Source of the DNA: Chthoniobacterales bacterium
Lineage (GTDB): Bacteria > Verrucomicrobiota > Verrucomicrobiia > Chthoniobacterales > UBA10450
NCBI GenBank assembly: GCA_035635435.1
Contig: DASQBB010000013.1
Span: 1,286-65,285, forward strand
Length of the DNA: 64,000 nt
Direction: 5' to 3'
The notes beneath the pieces are model-generated. The model did no database searches and had not been told where the DNA came from. It was given only the letters and a program-made list of their open reading frames with translations. The position numbers and the translations under genes are program-made. This document shows, piece by piece, positions 965 to 62,584 of this stretch. Position 1 is the stretch's first letter. Every line of letters begins with the position of its first letter.

Positions 965-1405
965 ATGACAAGAGTATTTGTTGTTGCGGACACTCATAAC
1001 AAGTTGCCGCAGAAAATTGTCGATCTTGCGCGCGACGCGGACGAGATCTGGCATCTCGGCGATGTTTGCGCGGAAATCATTTTGGATGAACTGCGCGCCA
1101 TCGGTCCGCCGGTCACGATCGTGCGCGGGAATTGCGACAGCAATTCCGAGTGGCCGCTGGTTGTCGATCTTACGCGAGAGGGTTTGAGATTTCGGCTGGA
1201 ACATATTCCGCCGGATCTTCTGCCCGATGATGTCGATGTTATTTTGCATGGTCATACCCACGTCCCGGGAAATGAAAAGCGCGGTGGCGTTCTGTTTCTA
1301 AATCCGGGTTGCGTCACGCGACCGAACCAAGGTTCGCCCGCGAGTGTTGCCTGGCTCGAAATCGCCAATGGAAAAATAAAGTGGCGATTAGTCCCGCTGC
1401 GCTGA
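965..1405 (+). CDS. YfcE/MJ0936-type metallophosphoesterase
   Basis: MTRVFVVADTHNK, WHLGDV, GNCD and HGHTH motifs. I chose the internal ATG at 965 rather than the ORF-track start at 920. Confidence 0.8.
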   Translation: MTRVFVVADTHNKLPQKIVDLARDADEIWHLGDVCAEIILDELRAIGPPVTIVRGNCDSNSEWPLVVDLTREGLRFRLEHIPPDLLPDDVDVILHGHTHVPGNEKRGGVLFLNPGCVTRPNQGSPASVAWLEIANGKIKWRLVPLR

Positions 1406-1414
1406 AATGCGGAT

Positions 1415-1954
1415 CTATTTCTCCTCGCTTGATTTCCGGCTGAACCAACGCCGCTTTTTCTTTGGCTCCTCCGCTGCCGGCGCTTCCTTTTCTTTCGCCT
1501 TGGGCTCTTCGCGTTTCGTTTCTTTCTGTTTTGGCTCGGCCTTTGGCTCTTTCTTTTTCGCCTTCTTTTCTTCGGCCGGTTTTTCTTCGACCACGACCTC
1601 GGCATCAACCCATTCGATGAACGCCATCGAAGCGGAATCGCTCTTGCGCTGACCGAGTCGCACGATGCGGGTGTAGCCGCCATTGCGTTCGGTCGATCGC
1701 GGCGCGATTTCGTCGAACAATTTTTTGACGGCGTCTTTGTGTCGCAACGTCGAGAAGGCCGTGCGGCGCGCGTGAATCGAGCCGTTCTTGCCGAGCGTAA
1801 CCATTTTTTCGGCAATGGGGCGGACCGCTTTCGCTTTGGCCAGTGTGGTTTTGATCCGCTGATGCTCGATTAAATTGCAAACCTGATTGGCAAGCAGCGC
1901 ATTGCGATGCGCAGCTTTGCGGCCGAGCTTCACCGTCTTTTTTTGATGTCTCAT
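1415..1954 (-). CDS. rplQ: 50S ribosomal protein L17 with a Lys/Glu/Pro-rich C-terminal extension
   Basis: MRHQKKTVKLGRKAAHRNALLANQ...RIKTTLAKAK is a typical L17 N-terminus. It lies directly downstream of rpoA. The last ~60 aa form a KE-rich tail. Confidence 0.9.
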   Translation of the reverse strand: MRHQKKTVKLGRKAAHRNALLANQVCNLIEHQRIKTTLAKAKAVRPIAEKMVTLGKNGSIHARRTAFSTLRHKDAVKKLFDEIAPRSTERNGGYTRIVRLGQRKSDSASMAFIEWVDAEVVVEEKPAEEKKAKKKEPKAEPKQKETKREEPKAKEKEAPAAEEPKKKRRWFSRKSSEEK

Positions 1955-1972
1955 CGGTTTGCCCTAATCGGA

Positions 1973-3022
1973 TTATTTGCGTTCGGTTGCGGCGACAGCA
2001 GCGCCGTTTCCAGAAGCGCCATCGGGTCCGGCAACAGGCTCGACCAAGCCGGCCTCGAATTTCATCCCGAGACTCAGGCCGAGCTGTTGCAGTTTGTCTT
2101 TGATCTCGTTGAGCGACTTCTTGCCGAAGTTGCGATACTTGAGCATTTCGCTTTCGGTCTTCTGCGCGAGCTGGCCAACGGTGGTGATGTTGGCGTTGTT
2201 CAAGCAGTTGGCCGCGCGCACGCTGAGCTCGATTTCGTTGACACTCATGTTGAGCAGCTTCTTGAGCTTCAGGTTCTCCTCGCTCACGCCCGCCGGCGTT
2301 TCGTCGAACTCGATCACTTCTTCGTTGAAGTTGACGAACACGTCGAGGTGATGGCGCAGAATCGCGGAGGCTTGGAGCAGCGCGTCGTCCGGAGTCAATC
2401 GACCGTCGGTCCAGACTTCGAGAATGAGCTTGTCGTAATCGGTGCGTTGGCCGACACGCGTATTCTCGACCGCATACTTCACGCGCGTGACCGGTGAGAA
2501 AATGGAATCGATCGGGATCAGGCCGATCGCTTGGTCGGCGCGTTTGTTTTCTTCGCCGGTGGCGAAACCGCGACCGACGCGGACTTCGAGCTCGGCGTCA
2601 AATTTGTGTTTCTTGTCCAAGGTGCAGATGACCAGCTTCGGGTTGAGCACCTCGTAGCCGGCCACTTCCTGGATGTCCCCGGCAGTGACTTCGCCTTCCT
2701 TGTTCACCATCAACGAAAGTTTTTTCGGCTCGTGATCTTCGGCTTTGAATTTCACCTTCTTGAGGTTGAGCACGATGTCGGTCACGTCTTCAACCACGCC
2801 AGGGAGCGTGGCGAACTCATGTTGCGCGCCGGTGATTTTTACCGCGGTAATGGCAGCGCCTTCGAGCGACGAAAGCAAAACGCGCCGGAGCGAATTTCCG
2901 ACGGTGTGCCCGTAGCCGGCTTCAAACGGCTCGGCGGTGAACCTGGCGTAAGTGTCTGTGGCTGTGCTCTCATCTTTGGTGAGAGTCTTCGGCATTTCAA
3001 AACGACCGTAACGAACTGGCAT
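1973..3022 (-). CDS. rpoA: DNA-directed RNA polymerase subunit alpha
   Basis: EPFEAGYGHTVGNSLRRVLLSSLEGAAITAVKI at the N-terminus. The C-terminal domain reads VNEIELSVRAANCLNNANITTVGQL. Confidence 0.95.
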   Translation of the reverse strand: MPVRYGRFEMPKTLTKDESTATDTYARFTAEPFEAGYGHTVGNSLRRVLLSSLEGAAITAVKITGAQHEFATLPGVVEDVTDIVLNLKKVKFKAEDHEPKKLSLMVNKEGEVTAGDIQEVAGYEVLNPKLVICTLDKKHKFDAELEVRVGRGFATGEENKRADQAIGLIPIDSIFSPVTRVKYAVENTRVGQRTDYDKLILEVWTDGRLTPDDALLQASAILRHHLDVFVNFNEEVIEFDETPAGVSEENLKLKKLLNMSVNEIELSVRAANCLNNANITTVGQLAQKTESEMLKYRNFGKKSLNEIKDKLQQLGLSLGMKFEAGLVEPVAGPDGASGNGAAVAATERK

Positions 3023-4527: not shown

Positions 4528-4545
4528 CAAGATCGACAATCACTC

Positions 4546-6284: not shown

Positions 6285-6922
6285 TCCGGTGCTGATGCTG
6301 GTGTCGCCGAGGTTGCGCTTTGGTCGTCGGGCGCGGGCACGGATGGGCGCGGGCTCACCGGCAGATGGCGGGTGCGGAGTTCCTCAACGTTTGGCAGTTC
6401 GTCGAGATTGCGCAGACCGAAATGGTCGAGAAAAAATTCGGTCGTTTCGTAAAGCAACGGACGACCGGGAATCTCGGCGCGTCCCGAAATTTTGACGAGC
6501 CCGCGCTCCATCAACGTTTGCAAAACTCCATCGATGGTGACGCCGCGGACTGCTTCGACATCGGCGCGCGTGATTGGCTGGCGATAAGCGATGATGGCGA
6601 GCGTCTCGAGCGCGGGCGAACTCAAGCGCGCCGGTTTCGGCGCGGGGAAAAGACCGCGCACCCATTGGGCGTATTTTGGATCGCTGGCCAGCTGCCAACC
6701 GTCGGCTTTTTCCGCGAGCTGAAATCCGTGTTCGTGTTCAATGTAATCGACCTTCAACTGCTCAATTGCGGCGGCGACTTCGGGCGGTCGGATTTTCGCG
6801 AATTCGTTGGGTGAAAATTCATCCTCGGCGCCGGCGTTATGGAGAACATCGACAATCTCTTTGATCGAGAGCGGCTTTTGGGCGCTGAAGAGCAAAGCCT
6901 CAATTACCCTGGCGAGCGTCAT
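6281..6922 (-). CDS. scpB: Segregation and condensation protein B
   Basis: IEALLFSAQKPLSIKEI...LETLAIIAYRQPITRADVEAVRGV...LMERGLVKISGR. Confidence 0.85.
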   Translation of the reverse strand: MTLARVIEALLFSAQKPLSIKEIVDVLHNAGAEDEFSPNEFAKIRPPEVAAAIEQLKVDYIEHEHGFQLAEKADGWQLASDPKYAQWVRGLFPAPKPARLSSPALETLAIIAYRQPITRADVEAVRGVTIDGVLQTLMERGLVKISGRAEIPGRPLLYETTEFFLDHFGLRNLDELPNVEELRTRHLPVSPRPSVPAPDDQSATSATPASAPE

Positions 6923-6927: not shown

Positions 6928-8334
6928 CTAATTTGCGCCGATCGCGCTTTGAATTGCGTCCGCGATGCGGTTGGCGTGTTTGTCGATCTTATCGAGCTCA
7001 CGGCCCTCGATCAAAAGGCGGATCTTTGATTCCGTGCCGGAGTAGCGGAGCAGAACACGGCCTTTGCCGGCCAGCTCGCGCTCAACTTCATCGCGCAATT
7101 TCACCACTTCACGCAGTTCCTCGATCGGTGGTTTTGATTTCACTACCAGATTGCGCTGCGCCTGCGGATATTTTTTGAGACACTTCTTCAATTTACTCAA
7201 CGGCTGACCGGTCTCGTGCATGATGCGTAAAATCTGGAGCGCGCTGATGATTCCATCCCCGGTGGTCGTGAAATCGCGAAAGATGATGTGGCCGCTTTGC
7301 TCCCCGCCGAGATTGAGATTTTGCTTCATCATTTCCTCAATCACGTAACGATCGCCCACTTTTGTGCGGATCATTTTGCCGCCGTTGGCCGCGAGCGTTT
7401 CGTCCAGGCCAAAGTTGCTCATCACCGTCGCGACAAGTGTATTTTCGCGAAGCTGATTCGTTTTCAAGAGATCGAGCGCGACGATCGCGAGAATTTCATC
7501 GCCGTCGACGATCTCGCCGTTCTCGTCGCAAAGAAGAACGCGGTCGGCATCGCCATCGTGAGTGATTCCGACGTCGGCGTTGGCGAGATTCACGGCCCGT
7601 TGGATTTCTTCGGGATGCATGCTGCCGCAGCCGTCGTTGATGTTCACCCCGTTGGGCTCGTTGTGAATGATCGCCACTTCGGCGCCGAGTTCGCGCAAAA
7701 TACAGGGCGTGGATTTGTAAGCCGCGCCGTTGGCGACGTCGACCGCGACACACATTCCTTCGAGCGACATGTCACGGGGGAAACTGCGTTTCGCGAATTC
7801 AACATAGCGCCCAAGCGCGTCATCGATGCGCGCGGCGCGCCCGATTTTTCCCGCAGTTGGGCGGATGTTGTCGATCTTGCCAGTGAAAACGAGGTCCTCG
7901 ATTTGCGCTTCGATCTGGTCGTCGAGTTTGTAGCCGTCGTGCCGGAAAAATTTGATACCGTTGTCCTCGTAAGGATTGTGCGAAGCGGAAAGAACAATGC
8001 CGGCATCGGCCCGCAATGAACGCGTGATGTAAGCCACACCCGGCGTTGGCAAGGGACCAATGATGAGAACATCGACACCGAGCGAAGTGATTCCGGCGAC
8101 GAGCGCGTTCTCGAGCATGTAACCGGAAAGGCGAGTGTCTTTGCCAAGCACGATTTTCGGGCGCGCGCCTTCCGGGAGCGTGCGCGGATTCAGTTGGGTG
8201 AAAACATGCGCGGCAGCGCGGCCAAGTTTGAGCGCGGTCTCGGCCGTGACCGGCTCGACATTGGCGACACCGCGGACGCCGTCAGTGCCGAAAATCTTTG
8301 TCGCCTGTTTCACAGCCTTACTGAAACGCTCCAA
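6928..8334 (-). CDS. glmM: Phosphoglucosamine mutase
   Basis: FGTDGVRG, the active-site loop SASHNPYEDNGIKF, DGDADR and GGEQSGH. Confidence 0.95.
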   Translation of the reverse strand: MERFSKAVKQATKIFGTDGVRGVANVEPVTAETALKLGRAAAHVFTQLNPRTLPEGARPKIVLGKDTRLSGYMLENALVAGITSLGVDVLIIGPLPTPGVAYITRSLRADAGIVLSASHNPYEDNGIKFFRHDGYKLDDQIEAQIEDLVFTGKIDNIRPTAGKIGRAARIDDALGRYVEFAKRSFPRDMSLEGMCVAVDVANGAAYKSTPCILRELGAEVAIIHNEPNGVNINDGCGSMHPEEIQRAVNLANADVGITHDGDADRVLLCDENGEIVDGDEILAIVALDLLKTNQLRENTLVATVMSNFGLDETLAANGGKMIRTKVGDRYVIEEMMKQNLNLGGEQSGHIIFRDFTTTGDGIISALQILRIMHETGQPLSKLKKCLKKYPQAQRNLVVKSKPPIEELREVVKLRDEVERELAGKGRVLLRYSGTESKIRLLIEGRELDKIDKHANRIADAIQSAIGAN

Positions 8335-13314: not shown

Positions 13315-15474
13315 TCAGCGCTTCGCCGGTTCGTAATCCTCGGGCGCTTGCTGTCCGGTTTCTTTTTCGGCCCGTTCTTTCAACGCGGCTTTACGGGAAA
13401 GTTTTACCCGGCCCTTGTCGTCGATCCCAATGCATTTGACCCAGATCATGTCGCCAATTTTAACGACGTCTTCGGTCCGTTTCACTCGGAAATCGGCCAA
13501 CTCAGAAATGTGCACCAGACCGTCCTTGCCCGGCAACACTTCCACGAATGCGCCGAACTCTTTGGTGGAAACGACGCGACCCTGATAAGTCTCACCAATC
13601 TCGATCTCCTTCGCCATCCCGCCGATGATTTCCTTGGCACGCGCCATCGATTCGCCGCTGGTGGCGTAAATGTGGACTGAGCCGTCGTCTTCAATATTAA
13701 TCTCTGCGCCGGTCTCGGCCACGATCCCCTTGATCGTTTTGCCGCCCGGTCCGATGAGCGCGCCGATCTTCTCGGGATTAATTTTAATCGTCTCGATTCG
13801 CGGCGCGTACTTGGAAAGTTCGGCCCGCGGTTTGTCGAGCGAACCGCGCATGGTCTGAAGAATCTTGGTGCGGGCTTCTTTGGCGCGAGTGATCGCCTCA
13901 GCCATGATTTTGTGGCTGACGCCTGGGAGTTTCAGATCGAGCTGGAATCCGGTCACGCCATTATCCGTGCCGCAAAGTTTGAAATCCATGTCTCCGAAAT
14001 GATCTTCCGAACCGATAATGTCAGTCAGCAGTTCGTACCGTTTCAATTGTCGATCTTCGCCGTGCTCGGTCACGAGTCCGACCGAAATTCCGGCGACCAT
14101 TCCCTTAACCGGCACACCCGCGTCCATCAGCGCGAGCATTCCGCCGCACACGCTCGCCATTGAAGTCGAGCCGTTGGATTCCATAATCTCACTCGAAATT
14201 CGAATCGCGTATCGAAAATCATTTTCGCCGGGCACAACCGGTTCGATCGAACGCTCCGCCAAAGCGCCATGCCCGATCTCGCGGCGTCCGGGCCCGCCCG
14301 TCCGGCCGGTTTCGCCCACGCTGAACGGCGGAAAATTGTAATGCAGAATGAAGCGCTTCGAAGTTACTCCGCCACCGTAGGCGTCGATGTTTTGCGCTTC
14401 TTCAATTGGCGCGAGCGTAACGAGCGCGAGCGCCTGGGTTTCGCCGCGCTGAAAAATTGCCGAGCCGTGTGCTCGCGGAATCACTCCGACTTCGCAAGTG
14501 ATTTGCCGCAAATCCTGATAACCGCGGCCATCCATACGTTTCTGTTTTTCCAGAATGCTTTTGCGAAACGCTTTCTTCTGGACGTGGTCGAATGCCTGCG
14601 AAATTGAGAACGCATCGGTCTCGGGATATTTTTCCAAGATCGACATCTTCACTTCTTCACGCAGCGCTTCGACGGCCTTGGCGCGGGCGACTTTGCCCGG
14701 CGTGTAAAGCGCGGATTCAATTCGGTCGCCGGCCACTTGATAAGCGATTTCGAGTAACTCTGGTTTGACGTTGAGCAACGGCATCTCGCGTTTTGGTTTC
14801 GCGATCTGCGACGCGAGCTCTTTTTGAATCCGAATCATCTCGCGCGTCTGCTCATGCGCGAACTCGAGCGCTTTCGCGAAATCGGCTTCCGGGATTTCGT
14901 CGGCCGCGCCTTCAATCATGATCACGTCGTTTTCAGTGCCGACGTAAACCAGGTCGAGATCGCTTTGTTGCCGCTCGGTGTGAGTTGGGTTCGCGACGAA
15001 CTGTCCGTTAACCCGGCCGACGCGCACCGCGCCAATCGGACCGGCGAATGGAACGTCCGAAACAGACAGCGCCGCCGAGGCGCCGTTGATCGCGAGAATG
15101 TCCGGATCGTTCTCGCCGTCGGCGCTGAGCAAGATCGAGATGATCTGCGTGTCGTAAAAGTAACCTTGCGGGAAGAGCGGCCGCAGCGGCCGATCGATCA
15201 TCCGCGAAGTAAGCGTTTCCTTTTCGGTCGGGCGACCTTCGCGTTTGAAGTAACCGCCGGGAAATTTTCCGGCAGCGGCTGCTTTTTCACGGTAATCGAC
15301 CGTGAGCGGGAAATAATCCTGACCTTCCTTGATCGCGGTGGCGGAGACTGCGCTCACTAACACCATCGTGTCGCCGCACGAAACGATGACTGCGCCGTCA
15401 GCGAGCTTGGCGATTTTGCCGGTTTCTATCGATATCTGATTAGACCCAATTTGGGCTGTGACCTTCTGTTGCAT
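13315..15474 (-). CDS. pnp: Polyribonucleotide nucleotidyltransferase (PNPase)
   Basis: Two RNase PH domains, a KH domain ([15 protein letters not shown]) and an S1 domain ([15 protein letters not shown]). Confidence 0.97.
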
Positions 15475-15561: not shown

Positions 15562-15657
15562 AATTCAAGGTGCCTGGCGACCTGGTTGTCGCGTTGTTAA
15601 TTTTCGAATCGGCGTCGCACTGAAACGCGGACGCTAAGATCGACATCCGGCCCGCGG

Positions 15658-17869: not shown

Positions 17870-20800
17870 TTAGTGAATGGTAATGTCGCCGGTTACTGGA
17901 TTGCCGCTGGCGGAGTAACCGTTGCTAAGATGGATCGAGAAGAAATCGTTAGTCCCCGGGTAACCGTTGTCGATCACGTCTACGGTGAAGCTCACGTTTG
18001 CTCCGTTAGCCTTGCCCTTGCCCGCGATGTGCGCCTGGTTCCCGTTGAAGGTAAGCGTGGTGATTTTGGTGGAATGGAATGAAAGCGGTGTTGCGGGATC
18101 ATCGAACATCACGTTACCGATGATCTTGGTCTTTTTCTTGAATTTCTGCAGTGCCACGCCGAGATCGAAGCTCGCCTGATTCTCGTGCGGTCCCACGATC
18201 GTACCGTGTCCATCCACATCTGTAGGTGAAGTTGCCGGAGTCGGAGTAGGTGTCGGTGTCGGGGGAGGCGTCGGAGTCGGTGTAGGAAAAGGAGTAGGAG
18301 TAGGTGTCGGCGTGGGCGTTGGGGTTGGAGTGGGTGTCGGTGTTGGAGTGGGTGTCGGTGTCGGCGTAGGAGTAGGAGTAGGAGTAGGTGTCGGGGTAGG
18401 TGTGGGCGTAGGTTGCGGCTTGCACTTCCCCGCGCCGCCCGCGTTGTAGATCGCCTTGACTTCGTCAGCACTTAGGGCGCGATTGAAGATTTCCACTTCG
18501 TCGATCAGGCCATTCCAGAAATCGGACTGTGCGCTCAACGCGCCCAAATAGTTATTGCTCGCGCCGGACAGATCGAGCGCTTCAGAGTCGCTCGCAGTGC
18601 CGGTCACTGCGCCATCGATATACAGTGTCCATGTCGATTGGGATCTCGTTAAGGCAAAGTGGTGCCACTGGTCATTCGTGTAATCGCCGAGAGACCCAAC
18701 CTGAATAGCATTGTTTCCGTTGCTGCCTCCGTTGCTGTTCCAGTAAACCCACAGACCAAAAGTGTCGTTGAAATCGAAGTCGAGGTTCCTGACTCCACCG
18801 GCCGGCGCGAAGTCGAGCGCGTACATCCGGCTCGTGCCGGTGGCGCGCGCCCAGAAATCGAATGTGAACTCGCCGGTGCCGAAGTTCCAGTCGGTGCTGT
18901 CCGGGATCGAAACGCTATCACCGTCGCCGTTGAAGCTAAATGCATCCCTTACCTCGCCCGGACCGAAACCTGCGCCGTTCAATGTGGCGTCATGACCGCC
19001 TTGGATGTCGGTCGTGTTATCATCGGCCGGCCACCAGGCAATCATATTATTCGGTGGCGAGACGCAGGGGCACTTACCCTTGCTTCCGGCGTCAAATATC
19101 TTTTGAATTTCAGCCTGACTGAGCGCGCGATCGAAGATTTCTGCTTCGTCGATCAAACCGTTCATCATATGGGTCGTGCCGACGTCGCGACCAATCAAGA
19201 GATCCGCCGTTCCGGAGAAAACAGAGGTCACGCTAGAAGTCTTGGACGCGACTTGTGCGCCGTTCACGTAGATCTTCCAATCCCCAGCATTGAATGTCGT
19301 GGCTACATGGTACCATGAACCGGTGGTGACGACTCCTGCTCCAGAGATCAGAGAGTCGAGGCTACTGCCATCGCCGCTAACATTGGAGCGAACGCTTCCG
19401 TCAGGCTGCAGATGTAACTCATAGCTACCATTTCCACTGTTAAACTTGCTAAAGAGCATCGGGAAATCGCTCAGGTCGGTTGTATTGACCCATGCATCCA
19501 ATGTGAACTTCGTGGTGACATCGAGATTGTCAGCATCCGGCACAAGAACCCCGCCATTGCCATCGAAACTAAAAGCTTGACCTACTTTGCCTGGAGAAAA
19601 GGTGACCCCGGTTTGCAGTGTGCCGTTGTTGCCGTCCTCGACGTCCATTGCGTTACCCTCAGCTGGCCACCAGCTAATCATCCCGCCGGGCGCGGGCGTG
19701 CAGGTTCGACATTTACCTGCGCTGCCTGCGCTGTAGATCGCCGCGACTTCCGAATTGCTAAGTGCGCGAGAGAAAACTTCGACTTCGTCGATCAGACCGC
19801 CGAACGGATCGCTTACTCCATCGCCTGCCATACCTATCTTGGCCGACAAGTCGTTCTCTTCAGGTGTTCCGCCGTTGTCAGCGAAGACTGACGCAGGCGC
19901 GTTAACTCCGTTGATATAGAACAGCATTTTTGGACCCTCCACCGCATTACCGTCGTAGGTCACGGCAACGTGCTGGAAGCTACCAGTCGTAACAGCGCTA
20001 TTCGTTTCGTATATTGTGAAAGCGCCATTAGTGTTGCGTACCGATGCAATCAGGTTGCCATCAGTGTTAATCTCCAAGAAGTAGCTGCGCGCGGTGTTTC
20101 CGTCGTCTTTGGAAATGATGGAGTGAGTGATCGAGAGGTTCGTGGGGTTGATCCAGGCATCGATCGTAAAAGTGACTGGAAGATCGACATCTCCAACATC
20201 GACATATTGATTGCTGCCATTAAGAGTAAATGCTTGTCGTACTTCGCCGGCGGCGAAGCCGGCGCCGTTTTCCAACGTCCCGTCGTTACCGTCCTTCGAA
20301 TCAACGGCATCGCCTTCGGCGCGCCACCAACTCACCATCCCGTCCGGCGCGGGTGTGCACGGGCATTTGCCTAAGCTGCCCGCGTTGAAAATCCGGGCGA
20401 CTTCAGTGTCGCTCAGCGCGCGATCGAACAGTTCTACTTCGTCAACGAGTCCTTTGAAATTACGGGTGTGAGTGGAATCGAACGCCCCGATAACAAAGGG
20501 CGCGGAAGTCGGCGTCAGATTTCCTGAAGAGGGACTGCCGGATGCAACCACGACTCCGTTGACGTAAAGCTTAGTGGTAGAAGTTTCAGCATTGCCATCG
20601 TAGACGACCGCAACGTGTGTCCACGTGTTAGTGGGCGGGGTAAAGTTCGCTTGGACGGCGCCGGTATTTGCTCGTCCAACCAGTACGCCCGGGTCGCCCG
20701 GTTCCCATTCGATTGCATAGCGCACAGTTCCATCGCCCGATTTACCAAAGAACCACGACTCGGTGGTGAGATCCGCGCTCGGATTGATCCACGCGTCAAT

Positions 20801-30456: not shown

Positions 30457-30536
30457 GGGTGCTTCTTTTGCCTTGAACTGCCGCCAACGAATCGATCGGC
30501 GAAGATCGACATCTCGCGCGACACGCGCTTGCGCGT

Positions 30537-35584: not shown

Positions 35585-35601
35585 AGATCGACTGTCGATC
35601 T
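35585..35601. promoter_or_regulatory. Perfect 17-bp palindrome made of two inverted copies of the dispersed motif
   Basis: agatcgac-t-gtcgatct, in the divergent spacer between the lipid kinase gene and the DUF4912-like gene. Confidence 0.35.
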
Positions 35602-35668
35602 TCGCCTGCGCGGTGCAACATTTGCTCTTTTCGTCCCGCCAATTTTCGCCAAATTCGGGTTCAACATC

Positions 35669-47853: not shown

Positions 47854-48690
47854 TCACACAGCGATTGGCGCTTTGATCGAGGGGTGCGGGTTGTAATCGA
47901 CCAGTTCGAAATCTTCGAACTTGAAGTCGCGGATGTTTTTGATCGTCGGACTCAATTTCATCCGCGGCAAAGATCGACAATCACGGGTCAGTTGTTCGCG
48001 CGCCTGGTCGAGATGGTTTTGGTAAAGATGCAAATCACCGAAGGTGTGGACGAAATCGCCTGGAGTAAGATCGACAGCTTGCGCCATCATCATCGTAAGC
48101 AGCGCGTAGGACGCGATGTTGAACGGGACGCCGAGAAATAAATCGCAGCTGCGTTGGTAAAGCTGGCAGCTCAGCTCACCGTCCTGGATATAAAACTGGA
48201 ATAGCACGTGACATGGCGGCAGCGCCATCTTCTCGATCTCAGCCGGGTTCCACGCGGTCACAATCAATCGTCGACTCGACGGATTTTTTTTGATTTGCGC
48301 GATGACGTTTTCGATCTGATCGACGCGCACGCCGTTCTCGCCGCGCCAATCGCGCCATTGCGCGCCGTAAACGCGCCCGAGGTTTCCTTTTTCATCAGCC
48401 CACTCGTCCCAAATCGTGACGCCATGTTCGTTGAGATATTTGATGTTCGTATCGCCGCGGAGAAACCAGAGCAGCTCGTAAATGATCGATTTGATGTGGA
48501 GCTTCTTCGTCGTCAGCAGCGGAAATCCTGGACCGTTCGGTCGGAGATCGAAACGCGCTTGCGCACCGAAGATCGACAACGTGCCGGTGCCAGTGCGATC
48601 CGCGCGGGGCTGACCTTCTTCCAAGACGAGCCGGAGAAGATCATGATATTGCCGCACGCCAAAAAGTAACCATGCGCGCGCGGTTATCAA
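47854..48690 (-). CDS. thyA: Thymidylate synthase
   Basis: [12 protein letters not shown]...[11 protein letters not shown]...[24 protein letters not shown]. The true start may be the GTG at 48657 (VRQYHDLL). Confidence 0.95.
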
Positions 48691-49198: not shown

Positions 49199-49225
49199 GC
49201 TAAGCCCTGTAGAACAGCGGTTTAG

Positions 49226-51268
<2,043 letters not shown>

Positions 51269-51271
51269 CAA

Positions 51272-52027
51272 ATGAAAAACGGAAAGCTTCAGGGAAAAGT
51301 TGCAGTCGTAACTGGCGCCTCGAAAGGGATCGGCGCGGGAATCGCTAAAGAGTTGGCCGCCGAAGGCGCTGCCGTGGTGGTTAACTACGCATCGTCAAAA
51401 ACGGATGCGGACAAAGTCGTCGACGAAATCGCGAAACGCGGCGGCAAAGCCGTCGCCGTGCAGGGAAGCGTCGCGAGCAAGTCGGAAGTTCAGCAGCTTT
51501 TTGCCGCAGCAGAAAAAGCCTTCGGCAAGATCGACATCCTGGTCAACAACGCCGGGGTTTACGAATTCGTGCCGTTGGACAGTGTCACCGAGGAGCAGTT
51601 CCACAAACATTTTAATACGAACGTTCTGGGAATAATCCTCGTCACTCAAGAGGCGCTGAAACATTTCAATTCCGAGGGCGGAAGCATCGTCAACATCGGT
51701 TCGCTCGCCAGCTCTCTCACTCCACCGACTGCGGTGGTTTACAATGCGACCAAAGGCGCGGTCGATGCGATCACCCGGACGCTGGCGAAGGAACTCGGAC
51801 CGCGAAAGATCCGCGTAAATTCGATTAACCCCGGCGTGGTGAAGACCGAGGGGTCGATCGCTGGCGGTTTCATGGAGGGCGATTTCGTGAGGACGCTCGA
51901 AGCGCAAACGCCGCTCGGTCGCGTCGGTGAACCCGACGACATCGCGCCAGCCGCGGTGTTCTTCGCGTCGGACGATTCGAGATGGATCACTGGCGAGACG
52001 CTACTAATCGCGGGGGGACTTCGTTAG
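51272..52027 (+). CDS. SDR family oxidoreductase
   Basis: TGASKGIGAGIA and NNAG, plus the Y-x3-K catalytic motif (YNATKGAV). Confidence 0.9.
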   Translation: MKNGKLQGKVAVVTGASKGIGAGIAKELAAEGAAVVVNYASSKTDADKVVDEIAKRGGKAVAVQGSVASKSEVQQLFAAAEKAFGKIDILVNNAGVYEFVPLDSVTEEQFHKHFNTNVLGIILVTQEALKHFNSEGGSIVNIGSLASSLTPPTAVVYNATKGAVDAITRTLAKELGPRKIRVNSINPGVVKTEGSIAGGFMEGDFVRTLEAQTPLGRVGEPDDIAPAAVFFASDDSRWITGETLLIAGGLR

Positions 52028-52036: not shown

Positions 52037-52070
52037 GCCGGTGGCTGTCGCAACATCGACAGTCGCCGGC
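52037..52070. promoter_or_regulatory. Imperfect 14-6-14 inverted repeat between the SDR gene and groES
   Basis: gccggtggctgtcg-caacat-cgacagtcgccggc (2 mismatches). There is no T-run, so it could be a weak terminator or an operator. Confidence 0.3.
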
Positions 52071-52444: not shown

Positions 52445-54082
<1,638 letters not shown>

Positions 54083-54211: not shown

Positions 54212-54997
54212 TTAAATTGCTTCGTGAATCCATAGGAGTGAAAGGCTGCGGTTAAGTGTCGGGAAGTAAATCGCGTCTTCGGTAATGCAGGATTTATCGT
54301 CGCCTCGGAAGCCTTCTAGCCAATGGCCCGCTTCGATATCTGAGCAGCGAGAACATCGCTTGGTTTCGTTCACCTCGGCCGCGCAACTGTGCCCGTGAAT
54401 ATAATCATCCTCAAGGAGGGAGAACGAAAAGCCAGCCGACGGAATGAACCACAAACGGCGCCTATTTTGGGCCGAAATCAGCACGCATTCCTCCGTTGTC
54501 GTTAGAACGAATTGCACCGCTGTTGCCGTAAGGGCCGTCTGAAAGTCTTCGGCCACGCGTTTGATCAGCTCGAAGGAAGGCTCCTGATTGGCGGTGCGCG
54601 CTTTGATAAATTCCCGCGGCATCAGCAGTTCGGCTGCAAAAAGATTGGCTTCGTACTCTTCGGTTTCCTGCCGTTCTGACCAGTTATTTGTCTGCTTGTC
54701 GTCCACCGTTTCAATCTGTCGTGTATCTGGATGCAAAAAGAAGTGGCCGAGTTCATGGCCGATAACGAACCGCTTTTGTCCCTCGTATCTAAGCGAGCGC
54801 CGAACTGTGATCACTGCTGAGACGCCCCTCCGAACAAGACAACCGTCCATTCCTTGTAGCGAAGCGTAGCGGACCTCAGCATTCTTAAACATAGCGATTC
54901 GTTCGATGTCGATCTCGCTCGGATCTTTGATCTGCAATTCGGCGAGCAGGCCGTCTGCTTTGGCGAGGACAATGGCTTTACGTTGGCTGGACGCCAT
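54212..54997 (-). CDS. ImmA/IrrE-family zinc metallopeptidase with a ~110-aa C-terminal extension
   Basis: FVIGHELGHFFLHP (HExxH) and EEYEANLFAAELLMP. The C-terminal part contains HGHSCAAEVNETKRCSRCSDIEAGHW. Confidence 0.75.
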   Translation of the reverse strand: MASSQRKAIVLAKADGLLAELQIKDPSEIDIERIAMFKNAEVRYASLQGMDGCLVRRGVSAVITVRRSLRYEGQKRFVIGHELGHFFLHPDTRQIETVDDKQTNNWSERQETEEYEANLFAAELLMPREFIKARTANQEPSFELIKRVAEDFQTALTATAVQFVLTTTEECVLISAQNRRRLWFIPSAGFSFSLLEDDYIHGHSCAAEVNETKRCSRCSDIEAGHWLEGFRGDDKSCITEDAIYFPTLNRSLSLLWIHEAI

Positions 54998-56842: not shown

Positions 56843-58182
56843 AGATTCCAAGGTTACTAGTCGAAGCAGCGCTTGCAGACCTATATCGGCCGCACCCAGT
56901 CGCAGCTGAACGCGTCGGGTTCTTCTCTACAAAAGTCACTCGCGCTAAGAGCATCGTAATCGTCCATTGCATCGCATATCATCCGGTGTCAGACGCGGAC
57001 TACATTCGCGATAATTCGGTTGGAGCTCGGATCGGGTCGGGAGCTATTACAGAGGCGATGGCGCGCTGCGCCGCCGATGTTGGGCAGCTTCATGTTCATG
57101 CGCACGGCGGCCGAGGTACGCCCGTACCGAGCATCACGGATAGCAGCGAAACACCTTCGGTAGCACGGAGCTTGTGGAATGTTAACCGAAAGCATGCGTG
57201 CGGCTGGGGAATTCTCAGCGACGACGGCGGCTGGGCGTCCGTCCTTATTTCACCTGAGCGAGACGATGCTGTGGAAGGCCAGGTTGCGCTGATTGGGTAC
57301 CCGATCACAGTCGCCCGGGCGCGACGCATAGCGGTTCAAGCGCCGCTGTGGTGGCGAAAACTATTTCGCCGAAAGTGCGCAATAGGGAATAGGTACGATC
57401 GACAGAGCTTTCTTGGCCCAGATTCAGACAAAATCTTTGCGAACTTGCGCGTCGGGATCGTTGGTCTCGGCGGCGGCGGATCTCACATCGCGCAACAATT
57501 GGCGCATCTCGGTGTGTGCCACTTCGTGCTTTGCGATCCTGACACGATTTCGGAATCAAATCTCAACCGCACGGTGGCAGCGACAGAGTCCGACGTCGAC
57601 CACCACACCTGCAAAACGACAATCGCGAAGCGACAAATTCGCGGATTACATCCGGATGCCGATATTGTTGTTATTGGAAAATGGCAAAGCCGCAGTGAGC
57701 CCCTGCTTCATTGTGACGTTGTCCTAGGATGCGTTGATACTTTCGCTGGCAGACGGGATTTGGAATCCTTTTGCCGCCGCCATCTAATTCCCTATGTCGA
57801 TGTTGGCATGGACGTGCTTAAAGAATCAGGTCGCGGCCATGAAATCATCGGCCAAGTAATTCTCTCAATGCCCGGCCGACCGTGCATGCATTGCATGGGT
57901 TTTCTAACGGAAGAGCTGCTCGCCGAGGAGGCTCGCAGATACGGTGCTGCGGGAGGACGACCACAGGTTGTCTTTGCTAACGGAGTAATCTGCTCAGCGG
58001 GGGTGGGCGTCGTTGTCGATCTTGTAACAAGTTGGTCGGGTAATCGGCGTCAGTCGGTGTATCTAAACTTCCGCGGCAGTGACCTGTCATTGCGTGATGA
58101 TCCGCGACTCCGGCATTTGGCCGACACATGCGAGCATTATCCATTGATCCAAGCGGGCGATCCTACCTGGACCCCGTTGTAA
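56827..58182 (+). CDS. JAB/MPN+ metalloprotease fused to a ThiF/E1-like adenylyltransferase
   Basis: JAB: Glu28 (AAERVGFF) and HVH-x10-SITD. E1: RVGIVGLGGGGSHIAQQL, LCDPDTISESNLNRT and PCMHCMG. Confidence 0.8.
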   Translation: MQTKLKIPRLLVEAALADLYRPHPVAAERVGFFSTKVTRAKSIVIVHCIAYHPVSDADYIRDNSVGARIGSGAITEAMARCAADVGQLHVHAHGGRGTPVPSITDSSETPSVARSLWNVNRKHACGWGILSDDGGWASVLISPERDDAVEGQVALIGYPITVARARRIAVQAPLWWRKLFRRKCAIGNRYDRQSFLGPDSDKIFANLRVGIVGLGGGGSHIAQQLAHLGVCHFVLCDPDTISESNLNRTVAATESDVDHHTCKTTIAKRQIRGLHPDADIVVIGKWQSRSEPLLHCDVVLGCVDTFAGRRDLESFCRRHLIPYVDVGMDVLKESGRGHEIIGQVILSMPGRPCMHCMGFLTEELLAEEARRYGAAGGRPQVVFANGVICSAGVGVVVDLVTSWSGNRRQSVYLNFRGSDLSLRDDPRLRHLADTCEHYPLIQAGDPTWTPL

Positions 58183-60138: not shown

Positions 60139-60143
60139 AGAGG

Positions 60144-60575: not shown

Positions 60576-60602
60576 CAAAGGGCTAGGAGCTAAGAGCAAA
60601 GT

Positions 60603-61043
60603 GTGAAGCTTTCCATCGCGATCATTTCTAGCTCCTTCCTCTTGGCTCCTTGCTCTTGGCTCGTGGCCGGTGATGCGGTCGCAATCGGCTACAATGCCGA
60701 CGGCATTTGGACGGACGTGACCTATTATCGATCGGGAACGCCGAAACGCGGGAAGGATTACCGAACTTCCGACCAAGCTCGCGAGTTCGCGTTGCGCGAT
60801 GTGCGCAGGCGAAGCCAATCTGCCATCGCGACGACGCACATTCTTTCGTCTTCGGATTCAACCGGTTTTGTTGCCGTGGCCCGCGGCCAGGATAAGTCCG
60901 GCAGAGACTTTCACGCGGTCGGTCATGCAAAATCGCAGGCAGAGGCCGACAAAAAGGCTATCGGCGAGCTGAACGAGGCCGGCGCTGGCGCAGAGCAGAA
61001 AATCGTTTACCGATATTTCTCCTACGGCGCGGATTCAAAATGA
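60603..61043 (+). CDS. Hypothetical secreted protein
   Basis: Signal-peptide-like N-terminus (GTG start). I recognise no family. Confidence 0.4.
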   Translation: MKLSIAIISSSFLLAPCSWLVAGDAVAIGYNADGIWTDVTYYRSGTPKRGKDYRTSDQAREFALRDVRRRSQSAIATTHILSSSDSTGFVAVARGQDKSGRDFHAVGHAKSQAEADKKAIGELNEAGAGAEQKIVYRYFSYGADSK

Positions 61044-61102
61044 AGTCCGAGGTGCGAGGTCCGAGCCGGACTGGCATTGCACTGGCGTTGGACGGGCATT
61101 TT

Positions 61103-62584
61103 ATGTCGATCTTATTTGTTTCGTTCGCCTTTTTGGTTCTCGCCGCTTCTTCGAAGGCTCAGAGCGGAAGTCCAGTCGAAGGATCGACAGCCACCCCTAC
61201 GCCGACCGCGACGCCGGTTGTTTTTTCACCGCAAACGCTCATGGATTTGAAACGACTGCAGCAAGCCGCGCTGAGCAGCGATTACGCTTATCGGCAGGTC
61301 GCGCATCTGGCGGACAACATCGGGCCGCGCTTGACCGGATCGGCGCAGGCCGCGAAGGCGGTTGAGTACGTCGCGGCCGAATTGAAAGCGATCGGTTGCG
61401 AAGTGGAGCTGGAGAAGGTGATGGTACCGCACTGGGTCCGCGGCGAAGAAACCGCCGCGCTGGTGAGCTGGTCGGGAATGGCGGCCGGCACCACTCAGAA
61501 GATTTTGCTCTGCGCGCTGGGCGATAGCGTGGCGACGCCGAAAGAAGGAGTTACTGCCGATATGGTGCCAGTAAAAAATTTCGACGAATTAAAAGCGATG
61601 CCGCGGGACAAAGTGGCGGGCAAAATTGTGCTCTTTAATTATCCGTTCGACAAACAAATGGCGGCGCAAGGGCACGCCGGCCAGGCTTACGGTGAAGCGG
61701 TCGAGTATAGGAGCGATGGTCCGAGCGCGGCGGCGCGACAGGGCGCGGTCGCGTGTTTGATTCGTTCAGTAGGCGGCGCGGATTATCGAATTCCGCACAC
61801 CGGGCAAACAAAATATGCCGACGACGCGCCAAAAATTCCTGCAGGTGCGGTCACGTCGGAGGATGCGGACCTGATTGTCGATCTTGTAAAGCAGGGCCCG
61901 GTGAAAATGAAACTGACGCTAACGCCACAAACTTTGCCGAACGTCGAAAGCGCGAACGTGATCGGCGACATCAAGGGCAGCGAACATCCCGAACAAATCG
62001 TGATCGTCTCCGGCCATTTAGATTCATGGGATTTGGGAACGGGCGCGATCGATGACGGCGCCGGCGTCGCGGTTTCGATGGAGGCGGCGAACCTGGTTCA
62101 GAAGCTGCATTTGAAACCGAAGCGAACGATTCGCATGATCGCGTGGATGAACGAAGAAAACGGATTGGCCGGCTCGAAGCAGTACGTCAAAGATCACGCC
62201 AAAGATTGGGCGAATCATTTCGCGTCGATGGAAACTGACGGCGGCGCGGATCATCCGATCGGTTTGCACATCAAGGCGAAGCCGGAAGTGAAGGCGATGT
62301 TAAAAGCGGTCGCTTCGATTTTGCAGGAGTCCGGCGCTGGAGCGCTCGATCTGGCCGAGAATGCCGGCGCCGATATCGGGCCGATGGAAAAAGTGGGCGT
62401 GCCGGCGTTCGCGCCGATTCAGGACAATCGATTTTATTTCAATTTTCATCACACCGCGGCCGACACGCTGGACAAAATCAATCCGAAATATCTGGCGGAA
62501 ACGTCCGCGGTGGTCGCGGTCGCGGCGTATGCCTTGGCGAATTCAGAGCAACCGCTGCCGCGGTCCGAGCCGGACCGGCACTAG
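61103..62584 (+). CDS. M28 family aminopeptidase with a PA-domain insert
   Basis: VIVSGHLDSWDLGTGAIDDGAGVAVSME...WMNEENGLAGS...FHHTAADT. I chose the ATG at 61103, before the signal peptide. Confidence 0.85.
   Translation: MSILFVSFAFLVLAASSKAQSGSPVEGSTATPTPTATPVVFSPQTLMDLKRLQQAALSSDYAYRQVAHLADNIGPRLTGSAQAAKAVEYVAAELKAIGCEVELEKVMVPHWVRGEETAALVSWSGMAAGTTQKILLCALGDSVATPKEGVTADMVPVKNFDELKAMPRDKVAGKIVLFNYPFDKQMAAQGHAGQAYGEAVEYRSDGPSAAARQGAVACLIRSVGGADYRIPHTGQTKYADDAPKIPAGAVTSEDADLIVDLVKQGPVKMKLTLTPQTLPNVESANVIGDIKGSEHPEQIVIVSGHLDSWDLGTGAIDDGAGVAVSMEAANLVQKLHLKPKRTIRMIAWMNEENGLAGSKQYVKDHAKDWANHFASMETDGGADHPIGLHIKAKPEVKAMLKAVASILQESGAGALDLAENAGADIGPMEKVGVPAFAPIQDNRFYFNFHHTAADTLDKINPKYLAETSAVVAVAAYALANSEQPLPRSEPDRH

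What the first reader, a model, noticed from the sequence alone, without database searches (positions are those of the whole stretch)
1018..61885. A strongly over-represented asymmetric 10-mer, AAGATCGACA, scattered through genes and spacers
By eye, the 9-mer AGATCGACA/TGTCGATCT occurs at least 31 times, and 25 of those are the full 10-mer AAGATCGACA. Copies reading AAGATCGACA on the + strand start at 4529, 9640, 14636, 15636, 20180, 24131, 27568*, 30502, 32831, 44166, 44526*, 47970, 48067, 48569, 49223* and 51527. Copies reading TGTCGATCTT on the + strand start at 1018, 1162, 6981, 7869, 14048, 17132, 35593, 40110, 43325*, 46044, 53905*, 54907*, 58014, 61104 and 61876. An asterisk means only the outermost A/T differs. 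A one-mismatch form, AACATCGACA, adds at least 9 more copies (1231, 6845, 8068, 20195, 35247, 36136, 42600, 52052, 57795). My rough base-composition estimate for any given 9-mer on both strands of 64 kb is below 1. The motif is not one protein motif. It is read as V-D-L (GTC GAT CTT; 1162, 40110, 46044, 58014 and others), K-I-D (6981, 7869, 51527), M/L-S-I-L/F (14636, 48569, 61104), C-R-S (24131, 47970), D-R-Q (14048) and R-S-T (17132). It also sits in non-coding DNA (4529, 15636, 30502, 49223). Nearly every Val-Asp-Leu I checked is spelled GTC-GAT-CTT, using a Leu codon I would not expect to be preferred in GC-rich DNA. That is the pattern seen when a DNA-level signal is accommodated in tolerant reading frames. 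About 20 of 26 genic copies carry TGTCGATCTT on the sense strand. The density (about 1 per 2 kb) and the frame behaviour resemble DNA uptake sequences (Neisseria DUS, Pasteurellaceae USS). Alternatives are a Chi-like recombination signal, a binding or methylation site (it contains GATC and TCGA), or an RNA-level signal, given the sense-strand bias.
Basis: seen in the sequence. Interest (0 to 1): 0.85.

Follow-up and report, generated by a model that had tools for sequence, protein, structure and literature searches.

The report
Hyper-abundant conserved 10-mer in soil Verrucomicrobia
A soil bacterium related to Candidatus Udaeobacter carries the 10-base word AAGATCGACA about once every 2 kb, roughly 140 times more often than chance, and evolution preserves the word itself rather than the proteins it lies in; this looks most like the DNA "uptake sequences" known so far only from Neisseria and Haemophilus relatives, but its function is untested.

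Summary
AAGATCGACA occurs 26 times on both strands of 64 kb, against 0.18 expected. The 9-mer AGATCGACA occurs 32 times and the variant AACATCGACA 9 times. The logo is AA[G>C]ATCGACA[W][C].

A codon-aware null gives 0.2-1.7 copies in genes against 24 observed. Copies lie in more than 20 unrelated genes, in all three reading phases, on both strands (13:13) and in spacers. Their flanks share no similarity.

The window comes from a Chthoniobacterales bacterium near Ca. Udaeobacter. Independent soil contigs from species only 82-88% identical in pnp carry the same word at the same density. They form one clade in a pnp tree, the sister clade is intermediate, and outgroups have none.

Inside motif copies, third-codon positions differ from close relatives at 4% against 35% in the adjoining 45 bp (p=4e-9). 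Positions 1 and 2 behave normally. The DNA word itself is therefore under constraint.

Orientation is balanced in every locus, which argues against Chi or KOPS. There is no enrichment in spacers or terminators, unlike DUS/USS, and no robust sense-strand bias.

My best guess (about 0.4) is a DUS/USS-like self-recognition signal for DNA uptake. A HIP1-like chromosomal motif is the main rival. No published description was found.

The parts
1018..1027 (-). exact AAGATCGACA; in YfcE-like phosphodiesterase gene 920-1405(+), read V-D-L
1162..1171 (-). exact copy; same gene, V-D-L
4529..4538 (+). exact copy; non-coding, between LemA gene and TPM gene, next to but outside two hairpins
6981..6990 (-). 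exact copy; phosphoglucomutase-family gene 6928-8334(-), K-I-D; conserved in L081, L085
7869..7878 (-). exact copy; same gene, K-I-D; conserved in L090
9640..9649 (+). exact copy; sigma-54 response regulator gene 8374-9837(-), V-D-L; conserved in L085, L090
14048..14057 (-). exact copy; pnp 13315-15474(-), E-D-R-Q; exact in L081, L085, L090, L089, L100 and L160 (6 of the 10 relatives aligned here), 1-2 mismatches in the other four
14636..14645 (+). exact copy; pnp, M-S-I-L
15636..15645 (+). exact copy; non-coding, between rpsO and the pnp leader; conserved in L081, L085, L088, L091
17132..17141 (-). exact copy; glycosyltransferase-2 gene 17120-17833(-), R-S-T
20180..20189 (+). exact copy; giant Laminin_G_3 gene 17870-21778(-), V-D-L
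24131..24140 (+). exact copy; giant gene 22161-26357(-), C-R-S
30502..30511 (+). exact copy; just upstream of the probable start ([11 protein letters not shown]) of giant gene 26545-30603(-), so probably non-coding
32831..32840 (+). exact copy; glyoxalase-family gene 32765-33169(-), V-D-L; conserved in 5 of 6 relatives
35593..35602 (-). exact copy; DAG-kinase-like gene 34690-35670(-), R-S-T; part of a back-to-back palindrome AGATCGAC-A-GTCGATCT
40110..40119 (-). exact copy; aspartyl-protease gene 39622-40695(+), V-D-L
44166..44175 (+). exact copy; metallo-beta-lactamase-fold gene 44046-44657(-), V-D-L; absent at the orthologous site of L002
46044..46053 (-). exact copy; tail-specific protease gene 44788-47082(+), V-D-L; conserved in L002
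47970..47979 (+). exact copy; thymidylate synthase gene 47854-48690(-), C-R-S; five relatives differ at 2-3 of the 10 motif positions here, so probably gained in this lineage
48067..48076 (+). exact copy; thyA, V-D-L
48569..48578 (+). exact copy; thyA, L-S-I-F
51527..51536 (+). exact copy; short-chain dehydrogenase gene 51272-52027(+), K-I-D
58014..58023 (-). exact copy; ThiF-family gene 56827-58182(+), V-D-L
61104..61113 (-). exact copy; M28 peptidase gene 61040-62584(+), M-S-I-L
61876..61885 (-). exact copy; M28 peptidase gene, V-D-L
27568..27577 (+). CAGATCGACA (9-mer copy); giant gene 26545-30603(-), V-D-L
43325..43334 (-). TAGATCGACA; APH-family kinase gene 42618-43589(+), V-D-L
44526..44535 (+). 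TAGATCGACA; gene 44046-44657(-), V-D-L
49223..49232 (+). TAGATCGACA; non-coding, 72 bp upstream of dnaK
53905..53914 (-). TAGATCGACA; groEL 52451-54082(+), V-D-L; relatives encode T-D-L or E-G-L here
54907..54916 (-). GAGATCGACA; Peptidase_M78 gene 54212-54997(-), E-I-D
1231..1240 (-). AACATCGACA variant
6845..6854 (+). AACATCGACA variant
8068..8077 (+). AACATCGACA variant
20195..20204 (+). AACATCGACA variant, starting 15 bp after the start of the exact copy at 20180
35247..35256 (-). AACATCGACA variant
36136..36145 (-). AACATCGACA variant
42600..42609 (+). AACATCGACA variant
52052..52061 (+). AACATCGACA variant
57795..57804 (-). AACATCGACA variant

Best explanation
SHOWN. AAGATCGACA (logo AA[G>C]ATCGACA[W][C]) is a hyper-abundant word that works at the DNA level and independently of orientation. 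It is kept at about one copy per 2 kb throughout the chromosome of a clade of soil Chthoniobacterales close to Ca. Udaeobacter. Constraint acts on the word itself, including its synonymous codon positions. Copies sit mainly in the reading phase that costs proteins least: AAG|ATC|GAC, which on the other strand is GTC|GAT|CTT.

INFERRED. The word is the recognition site of a sequence-specific protein that binds double-stranded DNA asymmetrically. The most likely candidate is the DNA receptor of a natural-transformation (type IV pilus / competence) machine. On this reading the word works like the DUS of Neisseriaceae and the USS of Pasteurellaceae. Fragments carrying it are taken up preferentially from the soil DNA pool. 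Homologous recombination of those fragments then spreads new copies and restores decayed ones (molecular drive). That would explain the high density, the strand symmetry, the lineage specificity and the conservation of synonymous sites.
For: - Enrichment is about 140-fold over shuffles and 14-120-fold over codon-aware nulls.
- The logo is sharp. Positions 4-10 are almost invariant and there is no information beyond about 12 bp, so this is not a repeat element.
- Exact copies are far more enriched than one-mismatch forms (144-fold against about 5-fold). Bakkali described the same gradient for uptake sequences (PMC1939737).
- The strand split is 13:13 for exact copies, 16:16 for 9-mer copies and 21:22 for the 8-mer core. 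It is balanced in each of 14 loci.
- Copies lie in more than 20 unrelated genes and in spacers. Density continues in 9.8 kb beyond the window.
- Independent soil-metagenome contigs from other studies carry the same 10-mer at 3-6 per 10 kb. They are only 82-88% identical in pnp. They form one clade in a pnp tree, with an intermediate sister clade and empty outgroups.
- Third-codon positions inside copies differ from close relatives at 4.2%, against 34.5% in the flanking 45 bp (p=4e-9). For more distant clade members the figures are 17.9% against 42% (p=2e-5). Codon positions 1 and 2 are unchanged.
- Whole sites are conserved at 22 of 54 against about 13% background. Gains and losses occur in both directions.
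- Positions 1-2 are relaxed in some lineages (L002, L093, L092), and a G3>C variant is specific to the window's lineage. This is reminiscent of DUS dialects (PMC3630211).
- A prepilin-type pilin gene lies in the window. That shows only that the organism has a pilin processed like those of type IV pilus or type II secretion systems.
Against: - No uptake, competence or receptor evidence exists for this lineage.
- comEC, dprA, pilQ and minor pilins could not be searched in the source genome.
- About half of known DUS/USS lie in terminators, often as inverted pairs (bioRxiv 10.1101/2025.10.24.684340). Here copies are not enriched in spacers: 19 of 110 against 14% non-coding.
- None of the spacer copies read lies inside a hairpin. 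One 35593 back-to-back pair is the only inverted pair.
- HIP1 in cyanobacteria shows the same enrichment and cross-species conservation without any proven link to uptake (PMC5861425). The statistics therefore do not single out uptake.
- Verrucomicrobia are not known to be naturally transformable (my own knowledge; searches found nothing).
Confidence: 0.4

Rival explanations
1. HIP1-like chromosomal motif. On this reading the word is the binding or modification site of a chromosome-associated factor, such as a nucleoid-associated protein or an orphan or type III/IIL-like methyltransferase. Selection for chromosome organisation or epigenetic marking would maintain it, with no role in DNA uptake.
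For: - The signature matches that reported for HIP1: 15-300-fold enrichment, and conservation within and between ORFs interpreted as selection (PMC5861425). This compares.
- Copies are distributed in proportion to coding and non-coding DNA, with no association with terminators.
- The word contains GATC and TCGA, and the HIP1 core is also built around GATC and methylated (PMC4390886).
- The exact copies may be slightly more evenly spaced than random.
Against: - The word is asymmetric and 10-12 bp long. HIPs are palindromes tied to palindromic methyltransferase sites.
- The AACATCGACA variant lacks GATC yet is also enriched.
- No methyltransferase or candidate binding protein was seen in the window.
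- Periodicity on the 10-90 kb scale cannot be tested in 64 kb.
Confidence: 0.27
2. By-product of sequence-specific biased repair or gene conversion. A very-short-patch-like or nickase-driven system would convert near-cognate sequences to the word in heteroduplexes. The word itself would have no cellular function.
For: - Orthologous comparisons show lineage-specific sites that differ from relatives at several of the 10 motif positions, for example 47970 (2-3 positions) and 44166 (3 positions).
- One-mismatch forms are modestly enriched.
- A lineage-specific secondary variant exists.
Against: - Xu et al. argue that strong positional conservation favours selection over neutral replenishment (PMC5861425). 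The same 8-fold reduction at synonymous sites is seen here.
- No known repair system has 10-bp asymmetric specificity or produces more than 100-fold enrichment (my own knowledge).
Confidence: 0.12
3. Chi-like or KOPS-like polar signal, read on one strand by RecBCD/AddAB or FtsK.
For: - The word is short and asymmetric.
- It is over-represented and scattered through genes.
Against: - Orientation is balanced in the window (13:13 exact, 16:16 for 9-mers, 21:22 core).
- My split of the positions at about 36 kb gives roughly even counts in each half.
- Orientation is balanced in every one of 13 further loci. Known polar signals are strongly co-oriented with replication.
- The enrichment and information content (10-12 bp, about 140-fold) far exceed known Chi or KOPS (my own knowledge).
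Confidence: 0.03
4. Protein-level, codon-usage or RNA-level cause. The candidates are a favoured peptide such as V-D-L or K-I-D, a codon-pair bias, or an mRNA signal.
For: - About 60-70% of genic copies share one codon phase.
- In this window 20 of 28 genic 9-mer copies have TGTCGATCT on the sense strand.
- ATC and GAC are preferred codons.
Against: - Codon-aware nulls give 0.2-1.7 copies against 24 observed.
- Copies occur in all three phases, both orientations and spacers.
- V-D-L is spelled GTCGATCTT 12 times of 22, against 0.65 expected.
- Only third-codon positions show extra conservation.
- Pooled de-duplicated orientation relative to genes is 33:26.
Confidence: 0.02

Closest known systems
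DNA uptake enhancing sequences: DUS of Neisseriaceae (GCCGTCTGAA, 12-mer AT-DUS) and USS of Pasteurellaceae (AAGTGCGGT core)
   Same: - It is a short (9-12 bp) asymmetric word at about one copy per 1-2 kb.
- Enrichment exceeds 100-fold.
- Numbers are equal on both strands.
- Many copies lie inside genes in a few tolerated reading frames.
- Exact copies are far more enriched than one-mismatch forms.
- It is clade-specific with small lineage variants.
- Sites are conserved between related species.
   Different: - The sequence is unrelated and the phylum is different (Verrucomicrobiota).
- There is no enrichment in spacers, terminators or inverted pairs, whereas about half of DUES lie in terminators.
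- Uptake bias, competence and a receptor (ComP-type minor pilin) are undemonstrated.
HIP1, GCGATCGC, of cyanobacteria
   Same: - Enrichment is 15-300-fold.
- It is scattered through genes and spacers in proportion to their share of the genome.
- It is conserved across species at synonymous positions.
- It contains a GATC core.
- Its function is unknown.
   Different: - HIP1 is an 8-bp palindrome recognised by orphan methyltransferases, whereas this word is asymmetric and 10-12 bp.
- One enriched variant of this word lacks GATC.
- It occurs in a different phylum.
Chi (GCTGGTGG and analogues) and KOPS/AIMS polar motifs
   Same: It is a short asymmetric word that is over-represented in genes.
   Different: - Those motifs are strongly skewed towards one strand per replichore and only a few-fold enriched.
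- This word is strand-balanced in every locus examined and about 140-fold enriched.
REP/BIME, MITEs and other small repeat elements
   Same: It has many copies per genome.
   Different: - Those elements are 20 bp or longer, structured and intergenic, and their copies share flanks.
- This word has no conserved flanks and no structure, and it lies mostly inside conserved genes at orthologous positions.

Membership tests
DUS/USS (DNA uptake enhancing sequences) | Hyper-abundant short word, hundreds to thousands of copies per genome, far above chance | tested here: met
   There are 26 copies against 0.18 expected in 64 kb. Density is the same in a 9.8-kb extension and in independent contigs. Whole-genome counts are not available.
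DUS/USS (DNA uptake enhancing sequences) | Both orientations equally frequent, with no replichore polarity | tested here: met
   13:13 exact copies, 21:22 core copies, and balance in 14 loci. Replichores are not identifiable.
DUS/USS (DNA uptake enhancing sequences) | Competent cells preferentially take up DNA carrying the word | not testable with these tools
   This needs uptake or competition assays. The organism is uncultured.
DUS/USS (DNA uptake enhancing sequences) | Competence machinery and a cognate receptor (ComP-type minor pilin; proposed ComN/PpdA for USS) | not tested
   Only one prepilin-type pilin gene was seen in the window, at 33670-34071. It is below every equivalog cut-off, and its homologues reach beyond the closest relatives. 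The rest of the genome could not be searched.
DUS/USS (DNA uptake enhancing sequences) | Frequent location in transcription terminators as inverted pairs | tested here: not met
   19 of 110 pooled copies lie in 14% non-coding DNA. The spacer copies that I read lie outside hairpins. There is one back-to-back pair, at 35593.
DUS/USS (DNA uptake enhancing sequences) | Dialects among related taxa | tested here: inconclusive
   The core GATCGACA is shared. Positions 1-2 are relaxed in L002, L093 and L092, and a G3>C variant occurs only in the window's lineage. The samples are small.
HIP1-type highly iterated palindromes | Palindromic word | tested here: not met
   AAGATCGACA is not its own reverse complement. 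Only 6 of 26 copies extend to the near-palindrome AAGATCGACATCT.
HIP1-type highly iterated palindromes | Conservation of sites between genomes beyond background | tested here: met
HIP1-type highly iterated palindromes | Cognate orphan DNA methyltransferases | not testable with these tools
   There are no methylation data and no access to the full genome. No methyltransferase lies in the window.
HIP1-type highly iterated palindromes | Periodic spacing at 10-90 kb | not testable with these tools
   The window is 64 kb. Local spacing is roughly Poisson.
Chi / KOPS polar motifs | Strong orientation skew with the direction of replication | tested here: not met
REP / MITE repeat elements | Copies share extended sequence and secondary structure and lie in intergenic DNA | tested here: not met
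   Information content is about 0 outside 12 bp. 24 of 26 copies fell in my CDS set (23 of 26 after correcting the start of the 26545-30603 gene), at orthologous positions of conserved genes.

The most novel reading that the evidence does not exclude
A third, independently evolved DNA-uptake or self-recognition sequence system. It would be the first outside Proteobacteria, and it would operate in the Ca. Udaeobacter-related Chthoniobacterales, which are among the most abundant uncultured soil bacteria. That would imply these bacteria are naturally transformable and preferentially exchange DNA with their own kind.
Probability: 0.35. Interest if true: 0.9.

Novelty: new variant of a known kind. 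Interest (0 to 1): 0.78.

Why it matters
Hyper-abundant, selectively maintained short words are known from very few bacterial groups: DUS, USS and HIP1. The first two are the only known sequence-specific DNA uptake signals.

A new example in an abundant, uncultured soil lineage of a different phylum would do one of two things. It could extend uptake specificity, and by implication natural transformation with kin preference, to soil Verrucomicrobia. Or it could give a second, asymmetric case of the unexplained HIP1 phenomenon.

There are practical uses as well:
- The word is a cheap lineage marker for binning contigs and assigning them to hosts in soil metagenomes.
- It could help find the cognate binding protein by phyletic profiling of motif-rich against motif-poor sister clades.
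- It could guide the design of DNA for genetic access to these bacteria.

Tried and rejected
- My first greedy ORF set mis-called 926-1261(-) and 1252-1815(-). An NCBIfam hit showed that 920-1405(+) is the real gene. This reversed the orientation call for two copies.
- The pooled k-mer enrichment was confounded by orthologous conserved stretches. ATCATGAT, GTGCACAT and the pnp-leader hairpin all occur 1-3 times per locus at the same place. They are not alternative motifs.
- No other hyper-abundant word was found in the sister clade or the outgroups.
- The apparent 'TGGATCGACA dialect' in L002, L003, L005 and L006 appears to be largely one orthologous groEL site (my reading), so I do not count it as a dialect.
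- The viral-contig scan for GAAGATCGACATCT gave 120 loci. All had single hits. A few had 2-3 copies, and none had host-like density.
- Literature searches found nothing on the word itself, uptake sequences in Verrucomicrobia, or Udaeobacter competence or methyltransferases.
- I considered a DnaA-box resemblance (TTATNCACA against AGATCGACA) and rejected it, by my own reasoning. The word has G where the box needs C, and no genome carries DnaA boxes at this density.
The rest was not the window's sequence. I therefore use its hits only after re-aligning them to the true translation, window:33670-34068 (55-86% identity).
- The look-up of the first window protein, 110-739(+), found nothing.
- Competence genes could not be searched.

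Full report
**1. Observation**

An exact search finds AAGATCGACA 26 times on the two strands of the 64-kb window. Dinucleotide-preserving shuffles give 0.18 +/- 0.39, with a maximum of 1. The 9-mer AGATCGACA occurs 32 times against 0.82 expected.

An unbiased count of all k-mers shows this word and its sub-words are the most frequent 8-, 9- and 10-mers in the window. Under an order-3 Markov model the 10-mer is expected 0.44 times (z = 38). Only the hexanucleotide-periodic repeats inside three giant genes score higher.

The logo built on the 7-mer core is A-A-[G 43 / C 11]-A-T-C-G-A-C-A-[T 30 / A 21]-[C 32 of 62]. There is no information further out. Single substitutions at positions 4-10 are almost absent. 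The only common variants are AACATCGACA (9 copies) and TAGATCGACA (4 copies). One-mismatch forms together occur 27 times against about 5.3 expected, so the exact word is enriched about 144-fold and its neighbours about 5-fold.

**2. Not a protein, codon or repeat-element effect**

The window is an ordinary bacterial chromosome segment, about 89% coding. It carries rplQ, rpoA, scpB, pnp, thyA, dnaK, groEL and gdh, among other genes, with no tRNA or Rfam hit.

- Shuffling synonymous codons within each gene keeps every protein and each gene's codon usage. It gives 1.7 +/- 1.1 copies in CDS against 24 observed.
- Shuffling codon order gives 0.20.
- V-D-L occurs 22 times and is spelled GTC-GAT-CTT 12 times, against 0.65 expected from codon usage. 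N-I-D is spelled AACATCGAC 4 times of 4, and V-D-V is spelled GTCGATGTT 6 times of 13.

Of the 28 genic 9-mer copies, 20 lie in the phase AAG|ATC|GAC, which is GTC|GAT|CTT on the other strand. Five lie in the second phase and three in the third. Four copies are non-coding. Copies lie in more than 20 unrelated genes and their flanks are unrelated.

**3. Orientation and placement**

- Exact copies split 13:13 between strands, 9-mer copies 16:16, and the 8-mer core 21:22.
- By my split of the positions at about 36 kb, each half of the window is also roughly balanced.
- So is each of 13 other loci of 10-22 kb. This is evidence against a polar Chi/KOPS-type signal.
- Gaps between copies are roughly Poisson (CV 0.92).
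- In 311 kb pooled from the clade, 19 of 110 copies lie in the 14% of DNA called non-coding.
- The spacer copies I read lie beside hairpins, not inside them.
- The only inverted pair is a back-to-back palindrome at 35593.
- In this window TGTCGATCT is on the sense strand in 20 of 28 genic copies. For de-duplicated sites pooled over the clade the ratio is 33:26 (p = 0.43). The sense-strand bias is therefore not robust.

**4. Organism and relatives**

The DnaK of the window is 97-90% identical to proteins of soil MAGs labelled Spartobacteria, Chthoniobacterales, Verrucomicrobia and Candidatus Udaeobacter. The window's right end is 99.96% identical to an ENA soil contig. The 9.8 kb beyond the window carries three more exact copies and one C-variant.

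A PNPase-based scan of JGI and ENA metagenomes returned 80 contigs.

- Contigs only 82-88% identical to the window in pnp carry the same 10-mer at 3-6 per 10 kb. Examples are L081 with 9 in 22 kb, L085 with 11 in 19 kb, L090 with 8 in 22 kb, L089 with 7 in 16 kb and L100 with 7 in 13 kb.
- In a neighbour-joining tree of pnp these contigs and the window form one clade. This is a single gene with no support values.
- The sister clade has an intermediate density: ATCGACA at 3.9 against about 10 per 10 kb, and 0-3 exact copies per locus.
- More distant Chthoniobacterales and other phyla have essentially none.
- The logo is the same across the clade, with weaker A1-A2 in L093/L092 and in the DnaK-set relative L002.
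- The AACATCGACA variant is absent from the three closest relatives: 0 in 63 kb against 9 in 64 kb.

**5. Constraint on the word itself**

I aligned the window to ten contigs of the motif clade. Of the window's exact copies, 22 of 54 are intact at the orthologous position, against about 13% for random 10-mers. The converse comparison shows copies present in a relative and absent in the window. At some window sites several relatives differ at 2-3 of the 10 motif positions (for example 47970 and 44166), so there is turnover.

The decisive result concerns genic copies.

| Comparison | Third-codon differences inside copies | In the flanking +/-45 bp | Whole aligned background | p (vs flanks) |
|---|---|---|---|---|
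| Three closest relatives | 3/72 (4.2%) | 34.5% | 36% | 4e-9 |
| More distant clade members | 17.9% | 42% | 46% | 2e-5 |

Codon positions 1 and 2 do not differ from background. In the L002 group, which has a looser word, there is no excess conservation of the window's 10-mers (40% against 36%). The differences there fall mainly on positions 1-3 of the word.

The relatives are not phylogenetically independent, so the p-values are optimistic. The effect is still 8-fold and is confined to 10 bp. At groEL 53905 the word coincides with amino-acid changes relative to other lineages (Y-V-D-L against Y-T-D-L or Y-E-G-L). The word can therefore override protein sequence locally.

**6. Interpretation**

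*Shown.* The word is under constraint at the DNA level, independently of orientation. It is clade-specific and hyper-abundant, and it is maintained across species.

*Inferred.* It is read on double-stranded DNA by an asymmetric sequence-specific protein.

Among known phenomena only two classes show this combination: uptake sequences (DUS/USS) and HIP1. The asymmetry, the length (10-12 bp), the steep fall from exact to one-off forms (PMC1939737), the tolerated-frame behaviour (PMC2817400, PMC2346458) and the small lineage variants (PMC3630211) fit uptake sequences best.

The lack of terminator or inverted-pair enrichment departs from them (10.1101/2025.10.24.684340). It fits HIP1 better (PMC5861425, PMC4390886). 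I therefore give the uptake-signal model about 0.4, a HIP1-like chromosomal or methylation-linked motif about 0.27, and functionless biased repair or gene conversion about 0.12. Polar-signal and protein/RNA explanations get a few percent together.

No test of uptake, competence genes, methylation or genome-scale periodicity was possible with the data available.

**7. Novelty**

Full-text searches found no report of the word, of uptake sequences in Verrucomicrobia, or of Udaeobacter competence or methyltransferases. The most recent survey I found treats uptake sequences as confined to Neisseriaceae and Pasteurellaceae. I classify the finding as a new variant of a known kind, namely hyper-abundant maintained genomic words. 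The sequence, the phylum and the combination of properties (asymmetric, intragenic, no terminators) are all new.

**8. Errors and limits**

- The query typed was partly not the window's sequence. Its hits are used only after re-alignment to the true protein.
- Gene calls are ORF-based. One was corrected with a family hit.
- All comparative evidence comes from two syntenic neighbourhoods (dnaK and pnp) plus the window.
- The clade tree rests on one gene.

Noticed in passing
window 17870-32740: Three tandem paralogous giant genes (1302, 1398 and about 1300 aa, each with 4 Laminin_G_3 domains) contain hexanucleotide-periodic Pro/Thr-type linker repeats. An S8 subtilase with a HYR domain follows. 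This roughly 15-kb block is missing from the syntenic loci of six related contigs, which join 17.8 kb directly to 32.8 kb. It still carries 3 exact motif copies..
   Followed up: partly
window 33670-34071 (+), next to MarR gene 33166-33576 (-): A small (133 aa) cysteine-free prepilin-type pilin with a GFTLVEIM cleavage/methylation motif. It is below the cut-off of every specific pilin or pseudopilin model. It has thousands of homologues in soil metagenomes, at 55-86% identity among those aligned. It shows the organism makes type IV pilin-like proteins, but there is no evidence that it binds DNA..
   Followed up: partly
window 15500-15570 (minus-strand pnp leader): An inverted repeat, TAGGTTTTA...TAAAACCTA preceded by CCTGACTGTAGG, lies between rpsO and pnp. 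Its arm sequences are among the most over-represented 10-mers in three pooled groups of Chthoniobacterales contigs, at about one copy per contig. It is probably the pnp leader processing hairpin. It gave no Rfam hit at gathering threshold..
   Followed up: partly
window 1231, 6845, 8068, 20195, 35247, 36136, 42600, 52052, 57795: AACATCGACA copies lie closer to AAGATCGACA copies than random (median 283 against 761 bp, P=0.014), in mixed relative orientations. The variant is absent from the nearest relatives. This is unexplained..
   Followed up: partly
window 35587-35605: A back-to-back palindrome, AGATCGAC-A-GTCGATCT, is formed by one exact copy and one partial copy inside the DAG-kinase-like gene..
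   Followed up: no
window ~34000-39600: Gene orientation switches from mostly minus (1-33 kb) to mostly plus (39.6-64 kb), and AT skew changes sign at about 36 kb. GC skew stays weakly positive throughout. No dnaA or DnaA-box cluster was looked for..
   Followed up: no
window 54212-56234 (-): This cluster contains a Peptidase_M78 (IrrE-like) gene, a 142-aa gene with no family hit, and a weakly ECF-sigma-like gene. It may be a remnant of a mobile-element regulatory module. It holds only one degenerate motif copy..
   Followed up: no
window 60104-60140: A 7-bp tandem repeat (AGTGACG x 5.3) lies between the glutamate dehydrogenase gene and the DUF5069 gene..
   Followed up: no
L195 (IMGVR_UViG_3300032315_000774), L166 (IMGVR_UViG_3300031853_000236): Two viral-database contigs hold 2-3 exact copies and 6 core copies in 12-13 kb. 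Their G+C content (63% and 48%) differs from the window's. They may be proviruses or host fragments of motif-bearing bacteria..
   Followed up: no
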